Shown piece after piece: positions 12,501-36,855 of a stretch of 54,055 nt of DNA. Location of the stretch: IMG/VR virus record IMGVR_UViG_3300010155_000008, positions 1 to 54,055 of that record; one strand, written 5' to 3'. The notes under the pieces were generated by a model. The model was not told where the DNA came from. It searched no databases and saw only the letters and a list, made by a program, of their open reading frames with translations. This DNA comes from a virus (Duplodnaviria > Caudoviricetes). The translations under genes and the position numbers were made by a program. Position 1 is the first letter of the stretch; each line of letters starts with the position of its first letter.

Positions 12501-12775
12501 AGTATTCTATAAATCATAGATTTAAAGCATTTGATTTAGAAACTTATTTATCTACAGGTACTCTTATGGAAACATCTGTTCCTGTAAATTTAGTAAATGG
12601 AGAAACATTATATACACAATTTGAATCATTTCAAACTTCTACAATGCCTGTAACTCAAGCAGCAAATACCGAAAGAGTTAATGTAATAAGAGCTCTTAAA
12701 CAAAGAAATCCTAATATTACAGATGATCAAATAAGACAAATTTTTACAACTTATAACTTTCAATATAATCTTTAA
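9521..12775 (+). CDS. Putative ejected cargo/internal virion protein (1084 aa)
   Basis: Long helical-looking ORF with no cysteine seen, immediately upstream of the giant genes. Its position matches the cargo genes of crAss-like phages. Confidence 0.6.
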   Translation: MARYPQGVSSFIPTYQAYEPDFTTMGKMLSIKQNQYDQNWKKLNNIYSSLYFSKTSHGESQKVKDQLRNEIDFNLKRVSGLDLSLEQNVQAAQQVFQPFYQNKSLMYDMAATKNWNTAKNRALGYQNSIDPKEHGLWWEDGFLELDYKLQEFQNTPYDEIQSTGLASVNYTPYVDIGLMAGEMAKEFGDRTVSSTSKDGLYEITTTNGPAILMQPLSQLYQLRMGNDPRVQAMYKTQAYVDRKNWSQSHAGEYDGDVKAAEMAYLENEFKVLQGGVKKTNKKLKGNEESFNKMQSLLQTALQNGTASPDAEKVLRNVSSNKELVSALLNISNLEKDMVSDGSSNGNTSTGKQVIFEGNIDVLRNRVDILRANSLMMQDFNKAAYSYSQRNMKTTQKADEYKLAEFKDMLKAKSDRSIAMDKFRVESGTAVWSATKNGIEAVDVKNRNSWQSEGPIAGVTANETNLKTFVQGQISSEWKQAKPGIVQGLEIATAIGIEGSSTKHGERIANTLNRGKYENKEGIAINVHGEALTLTNVKDALNKSTNSEEFEKETGLNLSDLSTLNTELLDLMTNDETTATLINSTFQTEVDKQKVVNWRKGAIKNKILLKGIYAEKAWLRENTEKLLKKAKQSSGPLHNASFAVDPNTGRFLEEKEYYDNALEAVLEGGVANRFLNSIGLDKDYLKRYLADQRRYDKREQQLTESANKQWEKGNYLGWLKDQTESTFNTYKDWDDIFYPDNILGELLKSASVADYDDVKEAWDREWTNSRNFKEAPPSSFGTGSGISSMPASAIVTPGNQGALPTQDFYGIEGGKIGIYDDYGNVKGLSNIGGELSAESPVIFSGVGTTNEVLDDDVNTIEHQKIAKMIWEAHGDRNLYKKGEGFKVIVKPTTEISGNKAAYTIMPTKAILDNLITTGEDEEKDKMKQDFLVNGATIISDRSQFDSYAFEASTTNPIEASLKRKVKLETDGIAEDSYDIEPGYGMDFTYNNKTNQYSINHRFKAFDLETYLSTGTLMETSVPVNLVNGETLYTQFESFQTSTMPVTQAANTERVNVIRALKQRNPNITDDQIRQIFTTYNFQYNL

Positions 12776-12777
12776 AA

Positions 12778-15700
12778 ATGGCTGAGGAAGTAAATAATAC
12801 AGGACAACCTTTGTCAGAGTATACAAATCTTGAGACAAAGTTGTCAACTCCTGAAAATACACAACCAGTTTCAAACATAAATTCTATTGGACCTGGTTTT
12901 GGTGTAAATAATAAATTAGATATTCCGGGTCCCTCTATAATGAATAATATTGTAGGTTATCCTGATAATTTACCTGGTGGACAAGCAATAGGTGATACAA
13001 GAAATTCATTAAAAGAATTTATAGCTACAGAATCTCAAGGTATTTCTGATGCAGCAGGTAAAAATAGTTATGGTAAAATGTTTAACTATGATGCAGGACC
13101 TGATAGTAATAATTTTTATGATAGATATGCTGCATATGGAGATGATAAATTTGCTGAAATAGGTTTTCATCCTTTTAGAGATAATGAAGCTAACTTTAAT
13201 GCTAATACTACAATGTGGAATGATTGGAGTAGAATGCTTACCCATTCATTTCCTGTATTATTAAAAAGAGGATTTATAGATGGACCCAAGAGTTTAGTAA
13301 AAATGATTGGGGGTGATTTTACTGGAGCTGATTTACAAGATGCAGCAGAATATGAAAGAGCTGCTGCTATTGGTATGTCTAATAAAGAAGGTGGAATAAC
13401 AGGAGTAAGTGCTTTTATGAATAATGCTTTCATGAACTTTGGTTATACTGCAGGTATAATTACTGAAGCTATAGTAGAAGAAGTTGGATTAAGTTTTCTG
13501 ACTGGAGCAACTAGTGGAGCAACTGGTGGAATTCAAGCAATGAGAACGACTAAGATTATTGAAGATATTGGAAAAGGTCTTGGTAAAATTAAAACAGGTG
13601 CTAAGGCTGTAAAAGAAATTATACCTAAGTTTTCTACACCAACGACTGCAAGAACTTTTTGGGAAAGTTCTAGAGGTAAAAAACTTTCTTCAATTGGAAG
13701 AACTCTTAATCCTTTAGAAAATACTGTAGATGTACTAAGAGATATAAGAAAATCTACTAAAGCTGGTGAATATTTAGATGGATTAGCTCTTCTTTCTAAA
13801 ACTTCAGGTAGTTTTTATAGAGATGTAAGAAATATAAATATGGCAATATCTGAATCTAGATTAGAAGCAGGTATGGTTGAAAATAAAATATTTCATAAAT
13901 TGTATGATGATCATTATGATAAAGTTGGTAAAATTCCAGATAGTAATGAACAGTATGCAATGAGGCAACAAGCTAAAAAGGGTTCTTTAGAAACGTTTTA
14001 TGCAAATGCAGGTATTATATATTTAACTAATCAAATTACTTTTGGTAATATAACAAATCCTAAAGGTGGATTAAATAATTTTTTAAAACAAACTAGAAAA
14101 GAAATTTATGAAGTTGGTGCTAAATCTGGAGAAAAACAGTTTGGTACTTTAGGTAAAGTAATATTTGATAATACAAAAAAAGCTTTTGTATTTGAAAAAA
14201 ATAACTTAATGAACTTAGCTAAGAGTTGGTGGAAACAGCCTGGATATGCTACAGCAAAAAAGACTTTAGGATATTTTAAAGCTAATGTATCTGAAGGTAT
14301 TCAAGAAAATTTACAAGAAGCAATTGCTAGAGCAAATGAGAATCATTATATAGAGGCTTATAAACAGCAAGGTCCTTCAGCTTCACTTTATGCTAAAGGT
14401 GTAAATAAAAGGAGTTATCAAGTTCAGAGTGGCATACTTGGGAGTACACATATGGATGACTATTGGAAAGAGTTAGGAAAAGAATTTAGTGCTCAAGGAT
14501 TTGAAACATTTATGTCTGGTTTCATGATGGGAACTTTTTCTAAACCTTTAAATAATGCAATTCCATTTTTATCTACACAAAAAGCTAGGATTTTTGATAA
14601 AGCTGCATTTGAAAAATGGAAAAAGACAAAACTTGAAGTAACTAAAGGAATTGTTGATAATCTAAATGATATCAACATAGATCAATTAATTAATAGTAGA
14701 TTAATGAATCTTGGGACTCAAGAAAAAGTTTCTGAAATTCAAAAAAAAGGAACTAAAAAAGAAGCATTAGATGCTGAAGTAGATGCATTTGTATCTACTA
14801 TGGCTTTAATGAGAAGAACTGGTACTGCAGGTGTATTTATAGAAAAGCTTAATTCTATGCAAGAACTTACTGATCTAGAATTAGCTGATGCAGTAAAATC
14901 TTTAAGTGTAGAAAATGTTCCAAAATATAGAAAAAGAATTACTAATTCTATTGCTAAATTAAAATCAATAGAAACTAAATTTAAAGAAGCTGAAGATAAT
15001 CTTGAAAATCCTGTTGATATTCAAAAGATATCTGCAGAAGAAATGAAGACTCCTGAAGGTCAAGCTTTAATTAGATTACATAATGCTTGGAATAAATCTG
15101 TAGAAAACTTTGTATACTTAAATACAGCCTTTGAAGATACAACTAAAAGAATGAGTTCTATCTATAATAATTATTTACAAAGTACTTCACTTGCTACTGT
15201 AGACTATGGTGCTGCTAAAGTTTTATTTAAACCACAAACTATTAGTAGACAACTAGGTATACTTGAACAAGAGCTTGCTATAGAAAGACAAAAAGAGGAT
15301 ATTCCACAATCTGAAAAATCTAAAAATGTAAAAGATAAAGAAAAACAAATTGATGCCTTAAAAGAATTTCAAAATGCTCAAGCTTTATTTTATGGATTTT
15401 ATCAAAGAAATGAAACCCCTACTATTAACTTAGCTAAAAAAAGATTAAAAGAATTTGATGATATAAAAGATCCCACTCAAGAACAAATTGATGGAAAACT
15501 TAATCAATTATTGGGAGATATTACTGATGAAAAGAAACAAGTTGAGGTAAATAAAGCACTAAAAGATACGCATGATAAATACATAAGATCATTAGCAATA
15601 GAAAATAATGCTACAATCTTCCAATCTAGTTTAGATGAGGCCTTTAATCAGTTAGTTGATTATTATAAACTTGAATTTGAATCAAGAGCTGTAGCAGAAC

Positions 15701-18700
15701 ATATTGATTTACTTACTGATCCAGGTGAATTTTTAAAGTTAGTTCTTGAAAATGAAAAAACTTTTGAAAGACTTGATGAATTTAGGAATGAATTACATTC
15801 AGAAATTGTAGATAGAGAAATAAATAAAGTAGCTTTAGATCAATTGTTAAATGCATTAGCAAATAATGCTCCTCCACTTTATATGGATAAAAATCAAGTT
15901 ATTGATATATTAGATAATAAAAAAGTTCCAGACTTTTTTACAGGTCATAAACAGGAAATTTATAATATTGGTAGTGAACCATATAGACAGGGAAAAGAAC
16001 TTATAGATAACTATATAACAACAGCAAATATACTAACTGCTAATATAGATCCTATTTCAGGAGTAGAAATGACTCCTGAAATGAAGAAATCTGTTGAAGA
16101 AGTTCAAAAGGTATTTAAAGATTCTAAAGATATAGGAAGTTTTAAAGGTATGTATCTTAAAGATGGTGATGTATATTCTAGAGTTTCTAATGTAATGTCA
16201 AAACTTTTTACAGATGAAGGTTATAATAGATTAAATCAAGTTATCAAAACTAAAGATGAAGCTTTTGTAAATTCTGAAGATGTTTTTGAGTTTAATCAAG
16301 AAAATATAAATTTGTTTATTAAAGAACTTAAACTTGATGTAGATTCAGGAAGATATGGGGAAACTGATGGAGGTATAACTGAAACAACTTTATCTAATTT
16401 AAAATTAGAACTTGAATCATTATTAAAGGGTGAGGTTTTAAACTCTTATCAAAAAGAAATTGCTGAATTAGAAAGTGGTAAAACTAAATACGAAGGTTCA
16501 CTTGTTGCTTTAGAAAATATAAGAATTATAGATAAAGAAATAGAAACTTTAAAATCTAATAAATATAATAAAGAAGAAATTACTAATGATATTTTAACTG
16601 ATGTAGTATATAAGGTCATGCCTATTATTACTTATGAAGGAGGAAGAGTTAGAGGTATAACTGCAGATGATATGGTCAGAGATTTCTTTGATCCTCAATC
16701 TGAACTCAGATATGATAACTATAAAGATAAAATTAGTGAAGAAGCATTTATTGCTTTATTTGGAGAAAGCGGACACTTAACTAAATTAAAAGAAAGAGTA
16801 GCATCAGGTGATATTTATATTTTTGCTAAAAATTTAGAAATAACTGATAATCAATTATTTAATAAAGAAGGAACTAAACTGAATAATGTTGGAGGTGCAA
16901 TTGATTTAATAATTGTAGATAAAACTGGTAAAAAATATATTGTTGATTTAAAAACAGGAAAACCAAGTAAATGGGCAACGTTTTTAATACCTGGTGATGA
17001 TAACTTTAATTATAAAAAGTATTTTGAAAACAGCATGCAACAAAGAGCCTATTCAAATTTATTTTATAATAAATCTAATGGTAAAGATATTGAAACTTTA
17101 TTATTACCTATATCTATTATAGAAGATACAGATGGTTATATTACAGAAGTTAAAAGTATTCCAGATAAAGATTTTAAAGGTCAAAAAACTTTTGATAATC
17201 TTGTTGATGGTCATATGTTTATAAAAACAGATAATAATGCTAGAATTCAAATAGGTAAGAATAAGGTTAAGGTAACTGATATTGATAAATATATACCAAG
17301 ACAAAGTATTGAAAAAGAAATTTCTGAAGAAAAGAAATTAAGTTCTAAAGAAGTTGTGGTAATAGAACAAAGAAAAAAGGATATAATACTAAAAATAAAG
17401 GCTTTAAAAAGAAAAGCTAATGTAGATACAGAAGCTATAGATGAATTAGAAGATGAATTAGAAGATGTTAAAAAGATCTTAAAACCTAATATTGCAAAAA
17501 AAACTCCAGAAGAAGATGAGGATAAAGAGTTTTATATTGATTTAAGAAAAAGGAAAAGAGCTGCTCAAGAAAATATAATTGAAACTTTAGAAGGAGTTAA
17601 AGAAAAAATAGGAGTAGAAACAGATTATGTAAATAATAAAGGAGTATCTATTAAAATCAAAAAAGGTTTTAATTTACCTAATTCAAAGATAACACTGGAA
17701 GAAGCTAAACAGACAGCTATTGTTAGTATTAATTTGAGAATAGAACAACTTTATAGATATGATATACTAAATCATGAAAGAAAAGATTTAGTTAAAGATA
17801 CTATAGATAATATAACAGGTAGAGTTTTTAATTCTGAAATTGGAAAAATATTTGATAAAAGAATAGATGATTGGGGAAATGAAGGAGCTTTACAAACAAT
17901 TATGATTGATTCTGTATATGTAACTGATGAAGGAAACTATGGAATTTTAGCAAGAAATTTAAGACGAGATAAATTATATGATATGATAGTTACTCCTGAA
18001 GGAGATGTTATATCCCATAATAATCAAGGTAAAATAGGAGAAGTGAAAAATCCTAAAGTTAAGATTGATGATTTTATAAAGTTTGAGAAAAGTGATTTTG
18101 CTAGAAAGAAAACTGATGAGGATAGAGCTAAAGAAGAAGCTTCTAAGAAATCTGGTAAAGAAACTAGAGATATAGACAAAGCTTCTGATATTAAAATTAT
18201 AGATGAATTTAGTGCTGTAACAACAGGTTTTATAAATGGAAAATTTGTACCAAGAACTTTAGAAGAAGGTCTTTTACACATAGATAAATTCTTAGAAAAA
18301 ACTTTTGGGTGGTCAAATGTTAAAACTACTCATAAGATAAAAACTATTAAAGATAAAATTTCTGAAAGTACAGAGGATGTGTTTACTATTACAGCTGATG
18401 GTACAACATTTATAGTAGATCAAGCAGCAGTTGGATTTGCAACTACTCCTGCAGGTAAGACTAGTACTTTTATTATTACATTACTTGATATAGTAAATGC
18501 TAAAGAAAATGCAGAAGAAAAAGCTCCTGTTACTAAATCTAAAGGTAAAATTATTCAATCAATTGAACCTACTATTGAAACAATAGGTAATATAACTTTT
18601 GGTACTGCAGGTCAAGTAGGAGAAAACAAAAATCAAGATGGTGTTTATATAGATACAGAAAATGGATTATATATTTTAGCAGATGGTATGGGAGGAATGG

Positions 18701-28900: not shown

Positions 28901-31900
28901 TTTTATTAAAAGTTTATATGCTGATAGTAGAATTGACAAAGAGACTCTTGATAACTACTTAAATGATTCTATAGTTTCTTCTATGTATAAAACTAAAATC
29001 TTTATAGATATTGTAGGTCCACAGTTTGCATTGAGATTAAATAAAGGTTTATCTGAAATGCTTGGAATAACTTATTTTAATAATAGACATAATATTAATT
29101 TAAGGTATGAAGGTAATAGAATAGAAGCTAGAGAAAAATATGCTAATGCTTTTAATAATGGTGTAATAGATTATATTTATCAAAATATTTTATCCAATTA
29201 TGTTGATAATAAAACAGGATTACCTGTAACATTACCTGAAGAAATTAGAAAAAGAAAAGTAAATAAAAAGAAACTTCTTGGTGACAGTGTTGTAGTTTTT
29301 AATAATAAAACTGTAAATATAGATCTTGATCAAATTAAAACTGATTATAAAAAAGGATTATTTTTTACAGGAAATGATGTTTCAGGAAAAGATACTTTTG
29401 ATAATAGCCCTTTTCCTACAGAAGAATCATATATAAGATATATAATTGAAAGAGAATATTTTAGAGAGGTATATAAAGAACATAAAGATAAGTCTGGTTT
29501 TGAAGAAAGAATTTCTAAAAGAGCTTTAGCAACTTCATTTAATGTTGGTTATATAAAAGGTGATGCCGGATTTGGATCAATTAAATATTCATATACTAAA
29601 GATATTATGGAGTTTATAGAAGATCCTAGTAATAAAACAATAGTTCAAAACTTTCCTGTTTTACAGCATTTAAAACCATCTTTCTATATGGCTTCAAAAG
29701 GATATCAACTTTTAGAGTTAGATAATAAAACATTAATTGATAATGATATAGCTTTAGATTATTCTAAACAATTAAAACAACTAGGAGATCCTATAATGAG
29801 AATTGTTTCTGATAATCCAATTAAAGATGCTATGATTAGTGATTTATTTAAAAACTTTTCACTAATGGCTATATATCAGCAAGGTACGGGTAAATCAGGT
29901 TTAAATTTTATCAAAGCCTTAAATCCAAATACTTTTGTTGATGTATTAAAAATACCAACAATACAATTTCAAAAATCTGTTTTTAAAGATCTTTCTAAAA
30001 TGCCATTATCAGATTTTAAAAAAGAGATGTCAAAAAGAAATACTCTATTTAATTTTATTGCTGATTCTATATTAGATACTTCTACATATAAACAATTATT
30101 GACAAGTCCTGGAAACTTTTTAGGTTCAATAGAAGCAGTAAAATTAAAGGATTTAAATAAGTTATCTAATCTTACTGATGAAGAATTATATAGAAGATAT
30201 AAGGATGCTATAGTGAATAAAGTTTTTGATAATGCAATGAGTGATAATAATCAAGGAACTGCAATTTTAAATGAAATAGAAATTGAATTATTAAGACGAA
30301 ATCTTCCTTTAATTCCTACTCAATCAACTTCTAAGGTTAAACCTACAATAAATTTATCAAAAGAGTGGAAAGGAGATTTGGAATCTAGACCTGTATATAC
30401 AGCAGAAGGAGTTAATACTATGAGAACTTCAGATGCTAAATCTGAAGAACATTTTGGAAATCCATTTAGTGAAGCTGGGTATGGAGATACAGTAAAAGTA
30501 AATAGTATTGGTGCTGCAGTTGAAGCTTATAAAGCTTGGCTTAATGAAGATAATTTAGCTACAACTAAAGACTTTGGTTTAGATCCAAAAGAATTTTTAA
30601 AAAAAATTATACTTTCTGCAGGAGGTAAACCAACTAGAAAAGGCATGTTTGCAATAGATGGTCAGTATTATTATATACCAGACATATCCATAATGTCTAA
30701 ACCTTATGGGTATGATGCATTTATTAATATTGGAAATGATGAAATATATTTAGGTTCTAGTAAAAAAGGATATACTGATTTTGTGTCAAATGATGAATAT
30801 CCTTTAGCTGATTTAAACTATGAACAAAGAGAATGGATACTTGATCAAATTAATCAAGGTAAATTAGATGGTGCTATTTTATTATATGCAGGTAAATTAG
30901 CAGCAAGAGGTGAAGGTATGCATCCTACAGCATTAGCAGAAGTAGTAGAAGAATTAAGATTAAATCCAAATACTAAAGTTAAAGTAGTAAATGAAGTATA
31001 TGATAAAATTGATGAAGATAGTTATTCAATAAGTTTGAATTACAAAGGACGTGATTATAATATGGTTATATCAAGAGATGGAGAAATAGTAGATCCTTCT
31101 TATTATAATCCGGAAACATTGATGGATGTAGATGTTAAGTCTAATATTTTTAAATTTACAAAAGAAGATATTAAAAATATTTTCTTAGAAATAGAACAAC
31201 CTCCTCAACCACCTGGTAAGGTTAAAGAAGGAGTATCTGAAGTATTTGAAATAAAACCTGAACTAGCTAATATAGGTACACAAGAACAATATTCTGAATG
31301 GATAAATTACTTATTAACTAAAGGAAAGCTTAAAGGAACTACTGTAAAAGATATTTTATATCATGGTACATATGAAGACTTTGAAGAATTTTCAAAAGAA
31401 AAAAGAGGAAATATAACAGGTTTAGGATCTTTTAAAGATAAAAAAACAGGAGAGGAGGTTGACTCTGATACAACTCATGCTTTTTTCTTTACTGATAATA
31501 AAATTAATGCAATAAGTTATTCTTTTAAAGGTAGAGAAGGTCGTATTAGGAAAGTTAAGGATGCTCTTGGAGATATTCTTATGGGAGAAGGAAAGAATGA
31601 AGCAGTAAAATTTATTAAGTCTATTCCTTATTATAATAAGCTTATTGAAGCTGCTAAAAATAAAGGTAAGTCTCAGGAGGAAATTAAAGATTTACTTAGA
31701 AAAGAATTAAAAAAAGTAAATATTGTTTGGAATAAAGGAAGTGCTCAAAGTTTTGGAAATTCACTACATAATCACGTAGCTGCTAAAAATGAATTTGAAA
31801 GTTTCTTAAAAAATATATCAAGATTTAAGAATAATGATTTATCTATTAAAAATAGATTTGGAGATTTTAATACTTATAATGCAAGTTATGATAATTATAA

Positions 31901-32564
31901 AATTTTTACTAACAATGAAAGATATGAGTTTGTTGATGTTAGTAAAGGACCAGGAGGTACAAGATTTTTTGCAGATGAAGTAGATAATAAAGTAATAGAA
32001 AAATTCTTTAAAGATGCACTTAAAGCAATAGAACAAGGTGAAATAGAGGCAAAAAAGAAGATGAAAAAACAAGGGTATGTAGAAAAAACATTGCCTGTTT
32101 TACTTAATTTAAAGAATCCTTTAATTCATGATTATGAAGAATCTCTTTTTACTGATAAATATAAAGGAGGTAAAAATCCTACAGAATATGTTGCAGGAAG
32201 ACAAGTTAAAAAAGCATTAAAAGAAAATAGAGATGGTGTAATATATGAAAATATAGTTGATCCTTATTTGTCTACAACTTATGGAGTGTTTGAAACAGAA
32301 AATATATATACACTTGGAGGTAAAGAAGACATGCAAGGTTTTAAAAACTTTGTATCTACTCAACAAACTATTAGTAAAAAAGGTCAATTAAATTTATTTG
32401 ATACTATAGATCCTGTATTAGAAAACTTTTATAATAATTTAAGTAAAGAACAATTAGATAATCCAAATTTACCTTCAATTACTCTTGCTCAAGAATTTTA
32501 TACTGATGCTCCACATGCATATAAAAATATAAATGAGTATATTGAATCATTAAAATGTTTATAA
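19920..32564 (+). CDS. Virion-packaged DNA-dependent RNA polymerase polyprotein (4214 aa) with zincin protease, DUF4326-like and ADP-ribosyltransferase-like modules
   Basis: Two-barrel RNAP catalytic loop GSDFDVDK (DxDxD) at 27579-27602, preceded by GPRIPT (~27462) and DGAAYL (~26196). HESFH...EEILAEDF at 22638-22793. HFGNPF (~30450) and YHGT (~31359). Size and context match crAss-like virion RNAPs such as phi14:2 gp66. Confidence 0.88.
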   Translation: MIKCALNKEELEYVYGLTKQSIQAKLNANNPFNVDSYMKYLYERIQKVSDKDRAAQFLAFTPAIIESVVLNNFIENIDQIEGYDKISILKVKWADPQTAIKNVVNTLDQTKTNLIIARLIREQAKGIIPDKNESKFDYNVVFRYKALNILSTTLPAFKPGATKFEKEVPDVQRRNINDTITAIANTISLEDTVLKHPNYQGVNIKLKAVNLSKFVDGTYSEKKLDGTTQSEIARSLDIQNPLTKGKPKAGIIQVQDRVIVLVTDEKGNPLSFDSSNNIVAEESSDSTYVYQMMRSIRKDGSGYSIRDIYNLENKVLSSSEIATIRSEESNVNYKEALQQVNSEFKEYYTLKNAALKEDLVLDFIGMTDGISIDKTTKKTPLNVLIDNKIITDKTLETIRTLTVPENGIAAGRATIVIEGDLYQLDRSRMSEDLAIQIQEVLFSEDFSIKEKTDFYEQFIPNKYITNYSKRHDIVREPVTNELFIKVYDKVQNKKYPRNLLFEISINSDGIVFENGQKVSESKKVKLKKDFKDALTNTYPDGNSIFIHYSEDHLQTPYSLDLYENGELKRTVNYYDFIKSHDPLVFIVSSETGYFNKQILFQRSTDTQLNNITEALPINKRFSQLKEDEYLGNLLLKETPDGKSVLKDEYKGKFIYSTVGLFSNEVFQDTDVVHTNDITVDLISSIQMGNGEVFRERNEDESIEAYIFAFSKAGYKTTHLDPAVTNRIKQLTESGVTVVTETSDRIKDVDLVVLGDRNNPGVESYSLKDNFFKKELEASVKYIQNLQKEPASISISPYVNKKIVIDKATSVDTDKPNDPNEDWELLRNGKLNSDKLSAADIKRADTFWTKSAFGKSLQKSISLNKAVNLVNSDAYANFVISGATLMNPDIKGTINIDNSKGSMVDLYHESFHAFTQLYLTPQQKIDLYEEVLDYTDTKGNKPYEGKSYLEIEEILAEDFRSYMKKNVAKPNSPMRNSIFRKIVQMLQKLLGKIIPNLKNVQLDIMSVPAVKELYENLNFGSDKYFNQYEASVDNAIFFELERGIKYVEKINNESYKRTALSKTDSDLISSSIDSIISDLIDARYDKEMERYPNLKGTQLESYISKIKGLSLTALLEPKHRALTYKKVLDKLKERLTVLNKEYNKSVGKVGISKINTFKLLKDNAVATLKTESGIHKYVLLKSQIDSFKDFDSYFKRGTRVKGEEWKGIKIVGDYFTHSIIKDNSREKKPEVPAQIIIVSRIEDAKVQYDNYVKGKAKEYTGIKLNAKAVDSDLTYDQENLLDNIRILENAIDQFGDPNYIINDIKPTGVIAYHLLHSDFEINKIKYFAEEEVPQENSETPFEEDFQKSLYDLAEKEVIYILKSLHKIENGKTKNNKLGFKERADFRKVWNTLFKVIGGVQSRQEMFDIIKEEAKNFPELEQLWKFKLPSPRNIQSTYAMDISSSFWHTFSKPSVKAWQLTTNISEVYIAGDLMDTSYDFIVNESTIELNKILSTFENRFKISKNKYMLRFKDQPAVLDLPRFHNDFIDSSSKVVDKLGFLRVLGFQLDNTKQLEKALTTKQASADINNLVLLIKDLYNITTKPINERSVKEKKLLKRFVTNPIGTLRNNDFMKNFISELPSFKNIETLRNDSIVRNLGKIQANFGFDTPGDTIVLPDGNNAYTVANHSAVTSIVLGINALDDLEEAYVLNEHLSYLNPYEDNGGMPYNPLALRNKVLNTMFPNGTKRDFTKEMEFVLLTGTELRTTTIYEDLYNSKAVAESSGINTGDLTPIDKLFQEYNMLLSKGVGEFIRHSEKKSAFGIKLDKRKEFNGIKTGTNKNLWIDIDLFKSQEGDGIALEAFILDYIASEFDRIQYFEQNEGVLETTTGYNRTLSNGRKAGLSFVAMDSLISEPIKEFLYKEAKKPNVTDIIDVLKNSKHYQFLRDDVLEYFEQKTLFIKNSLGSNLRLNPEFAKYDVDTLAKAYTYNDFINKLEMSNLINGDVAQFENLTKRSPGSSSNGDGFLSDINAQKFINGIFQGKNVTTYANTLGIEDFNFDGTLNTGVIKDPKRKSIYLKEMQEAWTENYLKAGLTKSETSSRVTRDSKAYKKMLEADGAAYLTIDAYRVLRKLGNKWSLEQENLYKDIVAGNDVSVEKVYKFFPVYKLHNYGPLMNSKIATTSMFKFAVAPIIPSIAKPGTELYKLHTKMLKSGIQMVTFKSGSKVASLTSKSNTEADDIFEKLDDLEKLNRTDKYVEEDDKKAPIKNNKIHLKYLKDVTSVADKLHKTITVGTQSRVVVESQLYSMGDLINPKNKKISIQYKKAVKNLTDVLETELLDEIGFTINEKGTYIPYSKGSLEKLTRMIRTELDSKGSPVQLQNIIDVSVNGSLKIDFSIHPEAQVVEQILVNRISKSISAQKTKGESDVQVPNTFYNGVWNSELEQDLAIIKNELEIQKYLGTNNLPFYRRGEIINKETGERASTHLAKVAIPLNGDFVNLLNLEDPDNPGNIIGTRKRLNELLKDTDWMKEHGQKVTITGPRIPTDDTNLIEGFEVWHFIDASAGSTAVVPTEIVAKAGSDFDVDKLFFSFPNINEDGSLPKTVLNFDSQIKKLRKEKKSIKKLINQQKRFNQNELIRTGVEILKLPETYSALTKPANTYLFKDQAKLESKSDIKGHSSLTENPTKFFETEYNNLQHELLLGGNIPVSIFAKYNKQHILYKSIGAKMPKKYFDNDYLIREMKMRFPHNLTPEGNISISSITNVDNVNIGEIFSHGLQGVLDRGNDSFPVRAGISKESLPVVLRMIESGVSLPQVIKFVQQPLIEDYLKKLAESKGILSQLKDANINKRRIVDQLLVQYIDSNAISFYNKKSFEDAKEAMKRNPNKMVSITAGDDINSVEVLSKDFNKFIKENNIESNQIKWIQFDNDLSPIFAKYSFKNPNLLYKTYHLGEYFWNKTYAQNIPTGEELRTPQADLEQVALLFEFLNVERQSQGMENFEMNFNPDTGLLLNIEGVVERKNFIKSLYADSRIDKETLDNYLNDSIVSSMYKTKIFIDIVGPQFALRLNKGLSEMLGITYFNNRHNINLRYEGNRIEAREKYANAFNNGVIDYIYQNILSNYVDNKTGLPVTLPEEIRKRKVNKKKLLGDSVVVFNNKTVNIDLDQIKTDYKKGLFFTGNDVSGKDTFDNSPFPTEESYIRYIIEREYFREVYKEHKDKSGFEERISKRALATSFNVGYIKGDAGFGSIKYSYTKDIMEFIEDPSNKTIVQNFPVLQHLKPSFYMASKGYQLLELDNKTLIDNDIALDYSKQLKQLGDPIMRIVSDNPIKDAMISDLFKNFSLMAIYQQGTGKSGLNFIKALNPNTFVDVLKIPTIQFQKSVFKDLSKMPLSDFKKEMSKRNTLFNFIADSILDTSTYKQLLTSPGNFLGSIEAVKLKDLNKLSNLTDEELYRRYKDAIVNKVFDNAMSDNNQGTAILNEIEIELLRRNLPLIPTQSTSKVKPTINLSKEWKGDLESRPVYTAEGVNTMRTSDAKSEEHFGNPFSEAGYGDTVKVNSIGAAVEAYKAWLNEDNLATTKDFGLDPKEFLKKIILSAGGKPTRKGMFAIDGQYYYIPDISIMSKPYGYDAFINIGNDEIYLGSSKKGYTDFVSNDEYPLADLNYEQREWILDQINQGKLDGAILLYAGKLAARGEGMHPTALAEVVEELRLNPNTKVKVVNEVYDKIDEDSYSISLNYKGRDYNMVISRDGEIVDPSYYNPETLMDVDVKSNIFKFTKEDIKNIFLEIEQPPQPPGKVKEGVSEVFEIKPELANIGTQEQYSEWINYLLTKGKLKGTTVKDILYHGTYEDFEEFSKEKRGNITGLGSFKDKKTGEEVDSDTTHAFFFTDNKINAISYSFKGREGRIRKVKDALGDILMGEGKNEAVKFIKSIPYYNKLIEAAKNKGKSQEEIKDLLRKELKKVNIVWNKGSAQSFGNSLHNHVAAKNEFESFLKNISRFKNNDLSIKNRFGDFNTYNASYDNYKIFTNNERYEFVDVSKGPGGTRFFADEVDNKVIEKFFKDALKAIEQGEIEAKKKMKKQGYVEKTLPVLLNLKNPLIHDYEESLFTDKYKGGKNPTEYVAGRQVKKALKENRDGVIYENIVDPYLSTTYGVFETENIYTLGGKEDMQGFKNFVSTQQTISKKGQLNLFDTIDPVLENFYNNLSKEQLDNPNLPSITLAQEFYTDAPHAYKNINEYIESLKCL

Positions 32565-32565
32565 G

Positions 32566-33435
32566 ATGGCTTGTATAAATAAATCAAATTCAAAATATAA
32601 AGATCTTCAAGAAAGATATGGAGATTTTTTAGCTGAATCTTTTGTTAGAGGTAACATATTAAATAAAAAGTTAGAGGTATCTGAAGATTTTTATATACCT
32701 ACACAAGGAGAGGTTACTAAATATTTTAGAAGTATTAGAAAACCTTTAAAAATAAAAGAACTTGAAGATGCTTTAAGACTTAATCCTGCTTTAGATATAG
32801 CTGCTATACGTACAATATTACAAGGAATTATAACAAAACATAAAGATACCTTTTATGTTATTCAAGGTTCTAATAATAGAGGTCCTATTGAACAACAACT
32901 AACTCTTAAAGAGATATATATTCCTAATTTAAATATACTTGAAACACTGTCTGAAAAATATCCTGATATATTTGAATTAAATACAGATAAACCTAATGTA
33001 ACAAGAGTAACAATAACTCCTGCAACAAACGTAGAATATATACCTGAAATACAATCAAGTTTAAATGCTTATACTAATTTATTAAATGAAAATGAAGGTA
33101 TTCAACCTGATCAATTTATTGTAGAAGATCATTTATGGCAAAGAACCGGAAATCATTTATATGCTTTAATTGATACTCAAACAGGAGATCCATTTTTAAG
33201 AAATATGAGTATGCTTTCTGGTGCAGAAGTAGTACCACAATCAACACCTCTAGATAAAGAAAGTGCTGATGCAGAAATAATGGATATCAGAACTAATTTT
33301 GATACAGAATATTGGCAAATTGATTTTGGCTTAAGAGGATATAACTTAGAACAAATTATTAATAATCTAGAAGCTGCAGAAACTCAACAAGAATTTGATG
33401 AGCAATTAGCAACTTTTAAAAAAATTACATGTTAA
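32566..33435 (+). CDS. Hypothetical protein (289 aa), putative cargo linker with terminal cysteines
   Basis: ORF coupled to both neighbours (1-nt gap and 0-nt gap). Begins MAC and ends ITC. Confidence 0.7.
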   Translation: MACINKSNSKYKDLQERYGDFLAESFVRGNILNKKLEVSEDFYIPTQGEVTKYFRSIRKPLKIKELEDALRLNPALDIAAIRTILQGIITKHKDTFYVIQGSNNRGPIEQQLTLKEIYIPNLNILETLSEKYPDIFELNTDKPNVTRVTITPATNVEYIPEIQSSLNAYTNLLNENEGIQPDQFIVEDHLWQRTGNHLYALIDTQTGDPFLRNMSMLSGAEVVPQSTPLDKESADAEIMDIRTNFDTEYWQIDFGLRGYNLEQIINNLEAAETQQEFDEQLATFKKITC

Positions 33436-36400
33436 ATGGCAACTTGTCCTAATAAAAATAGTAGAGAATGGAAAGAAGTTCTTGCTGCAGCACAGAATAA
33501 TGAAAAACTTGCAATGGAATTGTGGGTTAAAAGAGGTTATGTAGATAGAGTAAGTTTAAATCAAGAAGATACTTCAGGTTTGTCTCAAGAAGAAATTAAA
33601 AATCTAGAAAAAGATCAACAAGAAAAAGAAGAGGAAAAGACAGATTTACAAATATTAGTAGAAAGATCTAAAGTTCATTTAAGAAGACGAATTAAATATT
33701 TAACTAGTGTAATAGTTAAAGATAGACGTGTTCAGTCTGGAGAACTTAAAAAAGTTATTGATAATATGGAAGCTGTTGATGAAATAGAATCAATCAATGA
33801 GTTTATTATGGAAGCTTATGCAAAATCAGAAAGTTTGATGGTTAATATGGAACAAATTGTTGAAGATATAAAAGATAATCCTAAAGATAATTCTTTAATT
33901 GAAAGACTTCTTGAAATAAATATTGCAGTTAATGGTTCAGAAGATATATTAAGTGAAATTGCTGATAATAAGGATATAGTAGATTTTTTTAATAAGGAAT
34001 CAGAAAAAAGAACAAAAGATGGTGAGACAGAAGATTCTGAAGAACCTACAGAGTCAATAAAAGAAATGTTATATAAAGCTCTTGCTAATAGGAAAATATT
34101 AAAAAGAAGAATAAATGTTGAAGCAATTCCTTTAATTGCAGATTGGCTTTTAAGTGCACGATCTTCCTATGCAACAAATGCAAAAAGAAGTTATAATAAT
34201 ATTAAAAAAGATATTGAAAAGCAGAATAAAGCTTTTGCAGATGGTAAGATGTCTAAAAATAGACTTGATAGAATATTAAAAAGACTTGATAATAATTTAA
34301 ATGCTGCTGCAACAGCTGCTATAACAAGAGAAGATTTAATAAAAACATTAAGAGAGGCATCACGAGAAGATGGCAGGTTGGATTTTTTAATAGGACCAAT
34401 GATTAGTTCTCCTGATACTGTTATTGCACTTGTTGCAAAAGCTATTAAAGATCAATTAGAAAAAGCAAGACTTAAAGATGTAGTTGCTAAAGAAATAATA
34501 GGTGAATCATTTGATACGTATAAAGGTTTTGTTAGTGCTTCTAGAGATAATCCTCAAAAATTTAATGAAGGGATTTATGAAATAATTGATGAAAGAACAA
34601 ATGAGAAAGATGAAAATGGAAACTATATTTATAGAGAAGAGCTTCACTTTGTCAGCAAGTTTGATATGAAAAAATTTAAATCAGTTGAAAGAAATTGGTA
34701 TAAAAATAATCCAGAGCCTTTAAGTAAAAAGAAAAAAGCTTCTCCATTAACAACTAAAGAAGCAAGAGCTTATTCTTCATGGTTTGTTAAAAGAAATAAT
34801 TTTTATAAAACTATTACAAAATCTAAATCTGAAAAAGATATTAATAAGCTTGATTCTCAAATGATAAGACAAGTAGAAAATGGAATTATCACACAAGAAG
34901 AATTTGATGAATGGTCAAGAAGTAATGAAAGAAAAAAACAACTATCAGAACCAACAAATGAATTTTTAAGTGATAAGTGGAAAGCAATGTATAATGAAAA
35001 AGATGAGCCTATAAATCCTATGGGAGAATATCATCAGCAACTTACAGGTACATATTATGCTGCTCAAGAAAATATTCCTGATTCACAACGTCCTGGAACT
35101 AGAGTACCTTCTGTTCCTAAAAAAGATTTAGAAAGACTATTAGATAAGGGTGTAATAAATTTAGCTACAACTAATGTTAAAGAAGCACTAAAAGTACAAA
35201 GCTATGATACTGAATTTGGAGAATTAGGTTTAGATGATGAAGGTGTTCAAATATTACCTGTATTTTATACTCGCTTTATAGATATTGCTGATCAAAGTTT
35301 TGATCTTGCTAGTACTGTTTTAATATTTAATCAAATGGCTAATAAATATCAAGCCTTAAATGAAGTAAATGGACAAATATCTCTTGTTAAATCTATAATG
35401 AAAAATAGAAAAGTTCCTGAATTTAATCAAGGTGGTAAAAGGAAAATAGATGCTTTTGCTAATAAATTTGGACTTACTGAATATTTAAAACAAAATGGAG
35501 AAAGTTTTTCTAAACAACATTTAGATGCTTTTCTTGATATGGTTGTATATGGAGAAATGCAAAAAGTAGAAATGTTAGGTAATATATCAGCCTCAAAATT
35601 AACTAATACTATTACAAGTTTTTCAGCATTAACTTCTATTGCAGCAGATTTACTTAAAGGTGTCGCAAATAATTTACAAGGTAATATACAATTAATTATT
35701 GAAGCTAAAGGAGCTGAATTTTTTAATGGTAAAAATTTAAGAAAAGGAAAAGCTTTATATGCTAAAGGTCTTCCGGGAATGCTTTCAGATTTTGGTAAAC
35801 CAACTCCTATTAGTTTTATGGGAAGACTTAATGAATTATATGATCCTATACAGGGTGACTTTCAAGATAATTATGGAAGATTAATAACTGCTAGTGTTGC
35901 TAATAAATTATTTAGAACAAATACATTATTTTTTAATCAGTACTTTGGAGAACATGAACTTCAAACATCTACTATGTTAGCATTAATGGATGCTACTATG
36001 GTAAGAGATAAAGAAACCAAAGAAGAAATAACTTTATTTCAAGCTCATGAAAAGTATGGTGTAAGAGAAGCATTTGATAAAATTGAATGGATTGATGAAG
36101 ATGAAAAAGGCAATAAAAAATACAAAAATTTTACAGAAAAAGATAGAAGAAGTTTTCAAGATAGATTACATGCTTTAAATAAAAAAATGCATGGTGTATA
36201 CAATAGCTTTGATAAGGGTACTATTCAAAGACAGTCTGTTGGTAGATTAGCTTTAATGTATAGGAAACATATGTATCCAGGATTTATGAGAAGATTTCAA
36301 AGAGTAAGATTTGATGAAGAACTTGGTTCAGAAGTAGAAGGATATTATAGAACTTTTTGGCAGGTATTTGTTAGAGATCTTATTACTTATAAAAGAGATA

Positions 36401-36855
36401 TTGGTAAACAATGGTCTACATATACACCACATCAAAAAGCTAATATAAGACGAAATTTAACAGAGATATCTATTATATTAAGTTTAATGACAGTTATTAT
36501 ATTGTTAAGTTTAATGACAGATGATGATGAGGAAATGAAAGATAATTATGCATATAATTTTATATTATATGAGGCAATAAGAATGAAAACTGAAACTTCT
36601 CAATACATTAGTTTTAAAGATGCATGGAGAACTGTAAAATCTCCTTCTGCAGCTTTATCTACATTAAGTAGATTAATAAAATTTACAGGTCAAATAATGC
36701 CTTGGAATATTACAGAACCTTATGCAAGAAAACAAGGTATTTGGGATAAAGGAGATAATAAAGCATGGGCTTATTTTATTAGATTAATAGGACTTCCTGG
36801 TTATAATATTAAACCAAGAGAAGCAGTAAAAGTTTATCAAAGTATAGGTTTTTAA
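33436..36855 (+). CDS. Large putative ejected/cargo protein (1139 aa) with a C-terminal transmembrane-like segment
   Basis: Coiled-coil-like ORF with hydrophobic ISIILSLMTVIILLSLM at ~36466-36516. Last large gene of the virion block. Confidence 0.65.
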   Translation: MATCPNKNSREWKEVLAAAQNNEKLAMELWVKRGYVDRVSLNQEDTSGLSQEEIKNLEKDQQEKEEEKTDLQILVERSKVHLRRRIKYLTSVIVKDRRVQSGELKKVIDNMEAVDEIESINEFIMEAYAKSESLMVNMEQIVEDIKDNPKDNSLIERLLEINIAVNGSEDILSEIADNKDIVDFFNKESEKRTKDGETEDSEEPTESIKEMLYKALANRKILKRRINVEAIPLIADWLLSARSSYATNAKRSYNNIKKDIEKQNKAFADGKMSKNRLDRILKRLDNNLNAAATAAITREDLIKTLREASREDGRLDFLIGPMISSPDTVIALVAKAIKDQLEKARLKDVVAKEIIGESFDTYKGFVSASRDNPQKFNEGIYEIIDERTNEKDENGNYIYREELHFVSKFDMKKFKSVERNWYKNNPEPLSKKKKASPLTTKEARAYSSWFVKRNNFYKTITKSKSEKDINKLDSQMIRQVENGIITQEEFDEWSRSNERKKQLSEPTNEFLSDKWKAMYNEKDEPINPMGEYHQQLTGTYYAAQENIPDSQRPGTRVPSVPKKDLERLLDKGVINLATTNVKEALKVQSYDTEFGELGLDDEGVQILPVFYTRFIDIADQSFDLASTVLIFNQMANKYQALNEVNGQISLVKSIMKNRKVPEFNQGGKRKIDAFANKFGLTEYLKQNGESFSKQHLDAFLDMVVYGEMQKVEMLGNISASKLTNTITSFSALTSIAADLLKGVANNLQGNIQLIIEAKGAEFFNGKNLRKGKALYAKGLPGMLSDFGKPTPISFMGRLNELYDPIQGDFQDNYGRLITASVANKLFRTNTLFFNQYFGEHELQTSTMLALMDATMVRDKETKEEITLFQAHEKYGVREAFDKIEWIDEDEKGNKKYKNFTEKDRRSFQDRLHALNKKMHGVYNSFDKGTIQRQSVGRLALMYRKHMYPGFMRRFQRVRFDEELGSEVEGYYRTFWQVFVRDLITYKRDIGKQWSTYTPHQKANIRRNLTEISIILSLMTVIILLSLMTDDDEEMKDNYAYNFILYEAIRMKTETSQYISFKDAWRTVKSPSAALSTLSRLIKFTGQIMPWNITEPYARKQGIWDKGDNKAWAYFIRLIGLPGYNIKPREAVKVYQSIGF

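What the first reader, a model, noticed from the sequence alone, without database searches (positions are those of the whole stretch)
12778..36855. Head-to-tail terminal cysteine pairing across four consecutive cargo proteins: a candidate covalent daisy-chain ejection system
Seen (manual scan): ~8000 aa in four adjacent ORFs contain only six Cys, all terminal and matched at each gene junction. The 2380-aa protein ends ...FNNCK* (TGT 19912) and the 4214-aa RNAP starts MIKC (19929). The RNAP ends ...SLKCL* (32556) and the 289-aa protein starts MAC (32572). The 289-aa protein ends ...KITC* (33430) and the 1139-aa protein starts MATC (33445). The first protein has no N-terminal Cys and the last has no C-terminal Cys, which is the pattern expected for a linear chain. 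The genes are translationally coupled (TAATG, TAAGATG, TAAATG). Known: some virion proteins ejected through the periplasm, such as N4 vRNAP, lack Cys. Inference: inter-subunit disulfides or a shared metal site link separately translated proteins in gene order. This could fix packaging stoichiometry, let them thread one after another through the tail, and release them on reduction in the cytoplasm. I am not aware of this being described.
Basis: partly seen in the sequence, partly recalled or inferred. Interest (0 to 1): 0.93.

Follow-up and report, generated by a model that had tools for sequence, protein, structure and literature searches.

The report
Terminal cysteine pairs linking crassvirus cargo proteins
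Four giant, otherwise cysteine-free virion proteins of a marine crAss-like phage each carry a cysteine only at the ends where one protein meets the next, and the same rule holds across the crAss-like phages examined, which suggests the proteins are stitched head-to-tail into one chain.

Summary
The four ORFs at 12778-36855 (8,022 aa) hold six Cys, all within 4 residues of a terminus and paired at the three gene junctions.

It is not chance and not lineage-specific.
- All 31 members of the 289-aa family (33-100% identity) have exactly two Cys, at residue 3 and the last residue.
- In 26 records, 38 of 39 junctions have Cys on both sides. These include cultured phi14:2 and crAss001 and seven gut crAss phages.
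- 15 of 15 first proteins lack an N-terminal Cys, and 26 of 26 last proteins lack a C-terminal Cys.
- Modules of 2, 3 or 4 proteins carry 1, 2 or 3 pairs.
- In 4 of 5 fused giants, no Cys lies near the former junction.

The 4214-aa protein is the crAss-type virion RNA polymerase.

The best reading is that heterotypic links, most simply disulfides, join the C-terminus of each protein to the N-terminus of the next. This would give an unbranched pseudo-polyprotein for packaging and ejection. The chemistry is untested. I found no description in print.

The parts
12778..19920 (+). First link: 2380-aa protein with no N-terminal Cys and a single Cys at residue 2379 (..NNCK*). Weak relative of crAss001 gp47.
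   Evidence: blastp to gp47 gave 2.4e-4 in a small local database. Relatives start MAEE.. and end in Cys.
19912..19914 (+). TGT codon of Cys2379, the C-terminal Cys of junction 1.
19920..32564 (+). Second link: 4214-aa virion RNA polymerase homologue with Cys only at residues 4 and 4213.
   Evidence: A profile of its central region hits only PDB 6VR4 (phi14:2 vRNAP), E 2.1e-21. blastp to phi14:2 gp077 and crAss001 gp50.
19929..19931 (+). TGT codon of Cys4 (MIKC), the N-terminal Cys of junction 1.
27585..27599 (+). DFDVD catalytic-type motif of the two-barrel RNAP (residues 2556-2560).
   Evidence: The same GSDFDxDK context occurs in phi14:2 gp077 and crAss001 gp50.
32556..32558 (+). TGT codon of Cys4213 (..LKCL*), the C-terminal Cys of junction 2.
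32566..33435 (+). Third link: 289-aa adaptor made only of an N-terminal cap domain (about 1-160) and a C-terminal cap domain (about 157-289). Cys 3 and Cys 289 are its only Cys.
   Evidence: AF2 model with pLDDT 77 shows two domains.
32572..32574 (+). TGT codon of Cys3 (MAC), the N-terminal Cys of junction 2.
33430..33432 (+). TGT codon of Cys289 (..ITC*), the C-terminal Cys of junction 3.
33436..36855 (+). Last link: 1139-aa homologue of crAss001 gp49 and phi14:2 gp076. Cys 4 only, no C-terminal Cys.
   Evidence: phmmer gave 1.8e-62 to gp49 and 1.4e-28 to gp076. In alignment A5, C4 and P5 are invariant.
33445..33447 (+). TGT codon of Cys4 (MATC), the N-terminal Cys of junction 3.
9521..12775 (+). 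Context: 1084-aa Cys-free protein directly upstream with no terminal Cys. It is conserved upstream of the module in relatives.

Best explanation
**What the genes are.** They encode the conserved crassvirus virion cargo module.
- A gp47-like protein.
- The giant two-barrel virion RNA polymerase.
- In this lineage, an extra 289-aa adaptor.
- A gp49-like protein.

**What is shown.**
- These proteins are purged of Cys, as ejected phage proteins are.
- They keep one Cys within a few residues of every terminus that faces the next protein of the module.
- They keep none at the two outer ends.

**What is inferred.**
- The C-terminal Cys of each protein is bonded to the N-terminal Cys of the next, most simply by a disulfide formed in the virion.
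- Separately translated proteins then become one linear, unbranched N-to-C thread, a pseudo-polyprotein.
- Terminal placement keeps the thread narrow enough to pass through the tail partly unfolded.
- The absence of other Cys prevents mispairing.
- Host cytoplasmic reductants would release the individual proteins.
- The N-cap and C-cap domains of the 289-aa protein occur at the ends of many otherwise unrelated proteins. They look like the frame that lets additional cargo be spliced into the chain.
For: 1. **Exact pattern in the window**.
2. **Conservation in the 289-aa family.** All 31 members have Cys only at residue 3 and the last residue. Across 22 cap-bearing proteins with 16% mean identity, the only invariant columns are the two terminal Cys.
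3. **Conservation in distant representatives.** I examined the best 150 of 171 profile hits in 1.8 billion representatives. 56 of 56 with the N-cap at the N-terminus have a Cys in the first 8 residues. 87 of 87 with the C-cap at the C-terminus have a Cys in the last 4. There are 15 internal Cys in 141,650 residues, with two Cys-rich outliers excluded.
4. **Junction rule**.
   - 38 of 39 junctions in 26 records are paired.
   - 15 of 15 first proteins lack an N-terminal Cys.
   - 26 of 26 last proteins lack a C-terminal Cys.
   - Internal Cys are 73 in 146,220 residues (0.05%), against 0.83% in neighbouring genes.
5. **Cultured crassviruses.** The rule holds in phi14:2 (gp078, gp077, gp076) and crAss001 (gp47, gp50, gp49). 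In crAss001, gp47 is on the other strand, so the signal is at protein level.
6. **Both codons occur** (66 TGT, 11 TGC).
7. **The pair number follows the number of junctions.**
   - 4-protein modules: window, G007, G002; 3 observed in L038.
   - 3-protein modules: G003-G005, phi14:2, crAss001.
   - 2-protein modules: Suoliviridae and Intestiviridae.
   -.
   - In 4 of 5 Suoliviridae giants where gp47-like and RNAP parts are fused, no Cys lies within about 100 residues of the inferred fusion point.
8. **Two-protein modules contain no protein with both terminal Cys.** Intramolecular closure cannot be the role there.
9. **Disulfides do form in crassvirus virions.** Cryo-EM of crAss001 shows inter-subunit disulfides in the tail and portal vertex (PMC10172136, passages). 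That paper argues the cargo must partly unfold to pass the tail, and that gp45 exits N to C.
Against: - No chemistry was observed, so the bond type and the partners are inferred from sequence statistics alone.
- The records are phylogenetically related, so the 38 of 39 are not independent events.
- **Exceptions.**
  - In cr110_1 the annotated start puts the Cys at residue 17. An internal Met would give MSC.
  - In crAss001 gp50 the C-terminal Cys is 8 residues before the last residue.
  - Some lineages carry one or more extra internal Cys. These include G003 residue 2207, about residue 800-845 of the last protein, and up to 14 in the cr8_1 giant. This gives odd totals.
  - The cr4_1 fused giant has one Cys near the fusion point.
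- Apart from the 289-aa protein itself, the termini of the window's module proteins (the C-termini of the 2380-aa and 4214-aa proteins and the N-termini of the 4214-aa and 1139-aa proteins) do not match the cap-domain profiles. Profile-profile comparison of the last protein's N-terminus with the 289-aa family gave 1.8% probability. A common docking fold at every junction is therefore not shown.
- Virions assemble in a reducing cytoplasm, and gut phages live anaerobically. When a disulfide would form is open.
Confidence: 0.55

Rival explanations
1. The terminal Cys pairs bridge consecutive proteins through a shared metal ion (zinc-clasp or zinc-hook style) rather than a disulfide. The topology and purpose are the same, but release would come by metal loss.
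For: It fits the same junction statistics. Other structural proteins of the window use Cys only in tight clusters that look like metal sites: 793-aa protein residues 386-446, and 1803-aa protein CxC..CxC at 1512-1543.
Against: Each junction offers only two thiols. No His, Asp or Glu is conserved next to them. The invariant neighbours are Ile/Pro, Asn and Lys at the N-cap and Lys/Leu at the C-cap.
Confidence: 0.12
2. The terminal Cys do form bonds, but not to the neighbouring module protein. They might form homodimers (C-end to C-end, N-end to N-end), head-to-tail homopolymers of the RNAP, or attachments to portal or capsid proteins that anchor the cargo.
For: crAss001 has a homotypic 47-47 disulfide in gp57 at the portal vertex. 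Copy numbers of the cargo proteins are unknown to me.
Against: - It does not explain why the first protein never has an N-terminal Cys (15 of 15) and the last never a C-terminal Cys (26 of 26).
- It does not explain why a Cys pair appears at each extra split and is absent at 4 of 5 fusions.
Confidence: 0.15
3. The Cys are not linkers. They could be remnants or signals of polyprotein processing (a cleavage-site context for the zincin-like protease), N- or C-terminal modification sites, or redox sensors that act independently at each end.
For: - The preprint on phi14:2 vRNAP proposes that fused polyproteins are cleaved and notes a zincin-like protease in the module.
- HExxH motifs are present: 4214-aa protein residue 907, crAss001 gp47 residue 2157.
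Against: - In 4 of 5 fused giants there is no Cys at the fusion point, so the Cys are not part of a retained cleavage site.
- Split genes need no cleavage yet conserve both Cys absolutely.
- Independent roles would not give strict co-occurrence.
Confidence: 0.1
4. Nucleotide-level artefact: TGT codons are kept by translational coupling or overlapping start/stop signals at the gene junctions.
For: In many relatives the C-terminal Cys codon overlaps the next start codon, with a 7-nt overlap (..TTATGTTAG..).
Against: - The window's own junctions have no such overlap.
- crAss001 gp47 and gp50 are on opposite strands and not adjacent.
- TGC is used 11 times out of 77.
- The offsets from the termini vary: 0-8 residues before the last residue at the C-end, residues 3-5 at the N-end.
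Confidence: 0.02

Closest known systems
Crassvirales virion RNAP module (phi14:2 gp66 vRNAP, PDB 6VR4, with its two neighbours; crAss001 gp47/gp49/gp50)
   Same: - The 4214-aa protein is a homologue of the solved vRNAP, and the 1139-aa protein of gp49/gp076.
- The gene neighbourhood is the same.
- The proteins are virion-packaged in the cultured phages (record annotation; PMC10172136).
- They are fused into polyproteins in some lineages.
   Different: - The RNAP here is about twice as long.
- The module has a fourth member, the 289-aa adaptor.
- The terminal-Cys rule is not mentioned in the texts I could read. The phi14:2 preprint has 0 occurrences of cysteine, Cys or disulfide. The crAss001 atlas has 0 occurrences of cysteine, and its disulfides concern only the tail and portal vertex.
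Cys suppression in ejection proteins of N4-like phages (Schitoviridae gp71/72/73; N4 gp50)
   Same: Extreme depletion of Cys in giant proteins that leave the capsid through the tail. This is explained in print by passage through the periplasm (PMC11445570).
   Different: - There the Cys are essentially absent (0.00075% reported).
- Here every junction-facing terminus keeps exactly one.
- The RNAP folds are unrelated kinds. The statement that N4 has a T7-like single-subunit enzyme is recalled, not tested here.
Interchain disulfide of AB-type protein toxins, which holds two chains together during membrane translocation and is reduced in the cytosol (recalled knowledge; no sequence fetched)
   Same: It is the proposed working principle: a single disulfide keeps separately folded chains together through translocation, and the reducing cytoplasm releases them.
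   Different: - No homology.
- Here there are up to four separately translated proteins joined end to end, inside a phage particle.
- The bond is inferred, not shown.
Docking domains that order subunits of modular PKS/NRPS assembly lines (recalled knowledge)
   Same: Short C-terminal and N-terminal elements on consecutive, separately translated giant proteins specify who follows whom.
   Different: - Those are non-covalent and carry no Cys rule.

Membership tests
crAss-type two-barrel virion RNA polymerase (phi14:2 gp66 / PDB 6VR4) | DFDxD catalytic motif in the conserved GSDFDxDK context | tested here: met
   DFDVD lies at residue 2556 of the 4214-aa protein, in the same context as phi14:2 gp077 (1361) and crAss001 gp50 (1483).
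crAss-type two-barrel virion RNA polymerase (phi14:2 gp66 / PDB 6VR4) | Sequence homology to the solved enzyme | tested here: met
   - A profile of 7 sequences around the motif hits only 6vr4_A, E 2.1e-21.
- gp077 is identical in sequence to 6vr4_A.
- phmmer with the whole single protein found nothing.
crAss-type two-barrel virion RNA polymerase (phi14:2 gp66 / PDB 6VR4) | Presence in the virion and transcription of early genes | not testable with these tools
   Shown only for homologues, by MS/MS annotation of phi14:2 gp076-078 and crAss001 virion MS.
Crassvirales cargo module (gp47-like / RNAP / gp49-like) | gp49-like protein next to the RNAP | tested here: met
   The 1139-aa protein matches crAss001 gp49 at 1.8e-62 and phi14:2 gp076 at 1.4e-28.
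Crassvirales cargo module (gp47-like / RNAP / gp49-like) | gp47-like protein | tested here: inconclusive
   There is only a 194-residue blastp match, 2.4e-4 in a small local database. Position and size agree.
Cys-free ejection proteins (as described for Schitoviridae) | Cys frequency far below the phage proteome | tested here: met
   Zero internal Cys in 8,022 residues here. Across 26 records the rate is 0.05%, against 0.83% in neighbouring genes.
Cys-free ejection proteins (as described for Schitoviridae) | Complete absence of conserved Cys | tested here: not met
   One conserved Cys sits at every junction-facing terminus.
Disulfide-linked hetero-oligomer | A covalent S-S bond between the chains | not testable with these tools
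   Sequence only. No structural tool here returned coordinates or Cys-Cys distances.

The most novel reading that the evidence does not exclude
Crassviruses, including the dominant human-gut phages, package their polymerase module as a single pseudo-polyprotein.
- Separately translated giant proteins are stitched C-terminus to N-terminus by terminal disulfides.
- The chain threads N to C through the tail as one unbranched molecule.
- The host's reducing cytoplasm unstitches it.
- The N-cap/C-cap frame is a plug-in system by which new cargo domains (peptidase-like and other inserts, seen) are added to the ejected chain.
Probability: 0.4. Interest if true: 0.92.

Novelty: new variant of a known kind. 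Interest (0 to 1): 0.85.

Why it matters
**What is already known.**
- Cys avoidance in ejected phage proteins.
- Disulfides in crassvirus tails.

**What appears to be new.** An order-wide rule places exactly one Cys at each junction-facing terminus of the crassvirus cargo proteins. The rule tracks gene fission and fusion. I did not find it described in print.

**If the Cys are linked**, this would explain several things.
- How about 0.7 MDa or more of protein is packaged in fixed proportion.
- How the proteins follow one another through a narrow tail.
- Why some lineages can interchange a polyprotein with separate genes.

**It is directly testable.** Two cultured phages already have structural and proteomic data (phi14:2 and crAss001). 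The published crAss001 study already ran reduced and non-reduced MS samples.

Tried and rejected
- **PHROGs and Pfam.** PHROGs on all four module proteins and Pfam on the 2380-, 4214- and 1139-aa proteins (Pfam was not run on the 289-aa protein) gave nothing above curated cut-offs.
- **tblastn of the 289-aa protein against 50,697 phage records.** No match.
- **phmmer of the whole 4214-aa protein against PDB.** No match. A profile was needed.
- **The search of earlier findings.** Closed.
- **C-terminal 500 aa of the 2380-aa protein against G001.** No match.
- **Cap-domain HMMs built locally.** They did not detect the termini of the other window proteins. The best result was the 1139-aa N-terminus, domain E 0.12.
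- **hhalign of the last protein's N-terminal 200 aa (A5) against the 289-aa family (A1).** Probability 1.8%. The resemblance is limited to the first dozen residues.
- **The search for related loci.**
  - A narrower alignment worked.
  - P0047 found nothing in viral contigs and one locus in metagenome contigs.
- **Co-fold of the C-cap (289-aa protein, residues 150-289) with the first 60 residues of the 1139-aa protein.** No verdict, score 0.03 with the mark at 0.32. This is not evidence either way.
- **Foldseek of the 289-aa AF2 model against PDB.** Nothing at E <= 0.001.
- **Apparent counter-example in G001.** A 534-aa ORF ends ..RRCIK and is followed by an ORF without an N-terminal Cys. It is a frameshift at an A-run. 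In the independent record G007 the gene is one intact 3862-aa ORF with Cys only at residues 4 and 3861.
- **Explanations considered and rejected.**
  - Split-intein-like chemistry, because the Cys would lie at the wrong ends of the domains (my reasoning, not tested).
  - A lipoprotein-type N-terminal Cys, because there is no signal peptide in the N-termini printed.
- **NC_024711.** Not in the collection, so the prototypical crAssphage itself was not examined.
Full report
**Observation**

ORF listing and translation show four abutting plus-strand ORFs.
- 12778-19920: 2380 aa, Cys only at residue 2379.
- 19920-32564: 4214 aa, Cys only at 4 and 4213.
- 32566-33435: 289 aa, Cys only at 3 and 289.
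- 33436-36855: 1139 aa, Cys only at 4.

That is six Cys in 8,022 residues. All lie within four residues of a terminus, and they are paired at the three junctions. The outer N-terminus and the outer C-terminus have none.

Other genes provide the background.
- The replication genes on the minus strand of the same window have ordinary Cys contents of about 0.4-1.6%.
- The two other large plus-strand proteins carry Cys only in tight clusters.
- The 1084-aa and 502-aa proteins upstream have none.

**Identity of the genes**

PHROGs and Pfam gave nothing usable. Other evidence identifies the module.
- The window is a 54-kb viral record estimated at 48% complete.
- Its DNA polymerase is about 34% identical to that of the marine crassvirus Cellulophaga phage phi14:2, among others.
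- The 4214-aa protein has DFDVD at residue 2556 in the GSDFDxDK context shared with phi14:2 gp077 and crAss001 gp50.
- A profile of seven sequences around this motif hits a single PDB sequence, 6VR4 chain A, the phi14:2 virion RNA polymerase, at E 2.1e-21. gp077 is that chain.
- The 1139-aa protein is homologous to crAss001 gp49 (1.8e-62) and phi14:2 gp076 (1.4e-28).
- The 2380-aa protein is only weakly similar to crAss001 gp47.

The locus is therefore the conserved crassvirus cargo module. Its proteins are in the virion in both cultured phages (PMC10172136, passages).

**Conservation in close and middle-distance relatives**
- All 31 proteins of the 289-aa family (the window's own plus 30 relatives, down to 33% identity) have exactly two Cys, at residue 3 and the last residue. 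C3, I4, N5, K6 and C289 are invariant.
- A relative at 38% identity is held as two records, G001 and G007. It repeats the whole pattern: 2316 aa ending in Cys, 3862 aa with Cys 4 and 3861, 290 aa with Cys 3 and 290, and 1153 aa with Cys 4.
- An apparent split of the giant gene in G001 is a frameshift at an A-run. It is absent from G007.
- L007, at 34% identity, keeps both visible junctions but has two extra Cys in the last protein.

**The 289-aa protein is two caps**

A profile search of 1.8 billion representatives gave 171 hits, and I examined the best 150.
- Residues 1 to about 160 recur at the N-terminus of proteins of 58 to about 2,800 aa.
- Residues from about 155 to 289 recur at the C-terminus of proteins of up to 4,865 aa.
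- 56 of 56 proteins with the N-cap at their N-terminus have a Cys in the first 8 residues.
- 87 of 87 proteins with the C-cap at their C-terminus have a Cys in the last 4.
- The 148 proteins, with two Cys-rich outliers set aside, hold 15 internal Cys in 141,650 residues.
- In an alignment of 22 cap-bearing proteins with 16% mean identity, the only invariant columns are the two terminal Cys. The middles differ and include HExxH-type inserts.
- An AF2 model of the 289-aa protein (pLDDT 77) shows two domains. Cys3 lies in an N-terminal coil, and Cys289 directly follows the last helix.

**Junction rule across the order**

Fourteen further IMG/VR loci, four extended genomes and one metagenome contig all show consecutive proteins ending and beginning with Cys. 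The rule also holds in named crassviruses.
- **phi14:2:** gp078 has Cys as its last residue, gp077 has Cys 3 and 2179, and gp076 has Cys 3.
- **crAss001:** gp47 has Cys 2339 of 2341. gp50 has Cys 5 and 2404 of 2412, plus 1334. gp49 has Cys 5.
- **Five Suoliviridae:** a fused giant ends in Cys followed by 1-3 more residues, and the next protein starts M-x(1,2)-C.
- **Two Intestiviridae:**

The tally over 26 records is. G001 (a duplicate of G007), L010, L012, L013 and L017 (counted as G002-G005) and L038 were left out.
- 38 of 39 junctions have Cys on both sides.
- 15 of 15 first proteins lack a Cys in the first 8 residues.
- 26 of 26 last proteins lack one in the last 10.
- 73 internal Cys occur in 146,220 residues (0.05%).
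- Codons are 66 TGT and 11 TGC.

The one miss is cr110_1, where the annotated start puts the Cys at residue 17. A Met two residues before it would give MSC.

Among 106 non-module ORFs of the marine genomes, 6 have a Cys in the first 8 residues, 3 have one in the last 10, and overall Cys is 0.83%. The records are related, so these are not independent trials. They do span at least three families plus unclassified marine lineages.

**Covariation with gene architecture**
- Modules of four, three and two proteins carry three, two and one pair.
- G002 has a giant ending ..LKECY followed by a 782-aa cap-to-cap protein. In its relative G005 the C-cap sits on the giant itself, so the extra junction brings its own pair.
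- In the five Suoliviridae giants, the gp47-like and RNAP parts are joined by a peptide bond. I located the join by alignment to crAss001 gp47 and phi14:2 gp077.
  - Four have no Cys within about 100 residues of the inferred join.
  - cr4_1 has one, at residue 2180.
  - The positions are approximate.
- In crAss001, gp47 is encoded on the opposite strand from gp50 and gp49. The rule therefore belongs to the proteins, not to the gene junctions.
- In two-protein modules no protein has both terminal Cys, which excludes intramolecular closure as the general role.

**Mechanism**

Shown:
- A conserved, junction-specific pair of terminal Cys in an otherwise Cys-purged set of virion proteins.
- A pair number that follows the number of polypeptide breaks.

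Inferred:
- The pair is bonded, most simply by a disulfide. This restores the covalent continuity that fused lineages have by peptide bond.
- A bond at the extreme termini keeps the assembly linear. That suits passage through a tail whose constrictions require partial unfolding of cargo (PMC10172136).
- The purge of other Cys would prevent mispairing. It also fits the published idea that ejected proteins avoid Cys because they cross the periplasm (PMC11445570).
- Disulfides do exist in crassvirus particles.
- Release by cytoplasmic reduction, fixed stoichiometry and ordered exit are plausible consequences. None is tested.

**Against, or open**
- The bond is unobserved.
- Some lineages have extra internal Cys and odd totals.
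- Only the 289-aa protein family and its distant relatives carry recognisable cap domains. The other termini share at most a short motif.
- The timing of oxidation is unknown.

**Literature**

Four full-text searches found no description of terminal Cys pairing or disulfide-linked ejection proteins in crass-like phages.
- The phi14:2 vRNAP preprint contains no occurrence of cysteine, Cys or disulfide (term search of the text).
- The crAss001 atlas contains no occurrence of cysteine, and its disulfides concern only tail and portal-vertex proteins (term search).
- Subscription-only papers and supplementary tables were not visible to me.

**Verdict**

The daisy-chain reading is the most economical explanation and is directly testable in cultured phages, but the chemistry remains inference.

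Noticed in passing
G001 (L005/L002 boundary, contig position about 70,050-70,120) versus G007: The giant RNAP gene of G001 is broken by a frameshift at an A-run, giving a spurious ..RRCIK end. The near-identical record G007 has one intact 3862-aa ORF.
   Followed up: yes
L008-L021, e.g. L011:10372-10378: In many relatives the C-cap gene and the last gene overlap by 7 nt, so the terminal Cys codon shares bases with the next start codon (..TTATGTTAG..). This is an unusual overlap that keeps the Cys.
   Followed up: partly
window 1654-4035 and 4042-9453: The 793-aa and 1803-aa plus-strand proteins carry Cys only in tight clusters (residues 386-446; CxC..CxC at 1512-1543). These look like metal sites in otherwise Cys-poor structural proteins.
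   Followed up: no
window 87-1595: A 502-aa Cys-free protein matches endolysin and transglycosylase PHROGs (best 4.8e-9) at the start of the plus-strand block. It may be a virion-borne cell-wall hydrolase.
   Followed up: no
window 19920-32564, residue 907; crAss001 gp47 residue 2157: The HExxH (zincin-like) segment lies in the N-terminal part of the RNAP protein here but in the C-terminal part of gp47 in crAss001 (blastp 1e-3). The break between the first two proteins therefore sits at different places relative to the domains.
   Followed up: partly
window 19920-32564, residues 3812-3879: There is a weak ART-PolyVal Pfam match (E 0.004, below cut-off). JGI names three giant relatives (P0112, P0180, P0187) as DUF1768/YbiA-type ADP-ribosyltransferase.
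   Followed up: no
L033 (cr110_1) 16053-16100: The annotated start of the 4417-aa giant is probably 14 codons too far upstream. Met15 gives the usual M-S-C start.
   Followed up: partly
L029, L032, L035 (cr113_1, cr4_1, cr53_1): The late genes hold 4-73 in-frame stops each under table 11, consistent with stop-codon reassignment in these gut crassviruses. The codon involved was not checked.
   Followed up: no
Last proteins of L007, L008, L010, L015-L019 (residues about 799-845): A single extra internal Cys recurs at a similar position of the gp49-like protein in several lineages. It is absent in the window.
   Followed up: no
L034 (cr8_1) 30099-30368: cr8_1 carries a gene annotated as thioredoxin. 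This may be relevant to thiol chemistry.
   Followed up: no
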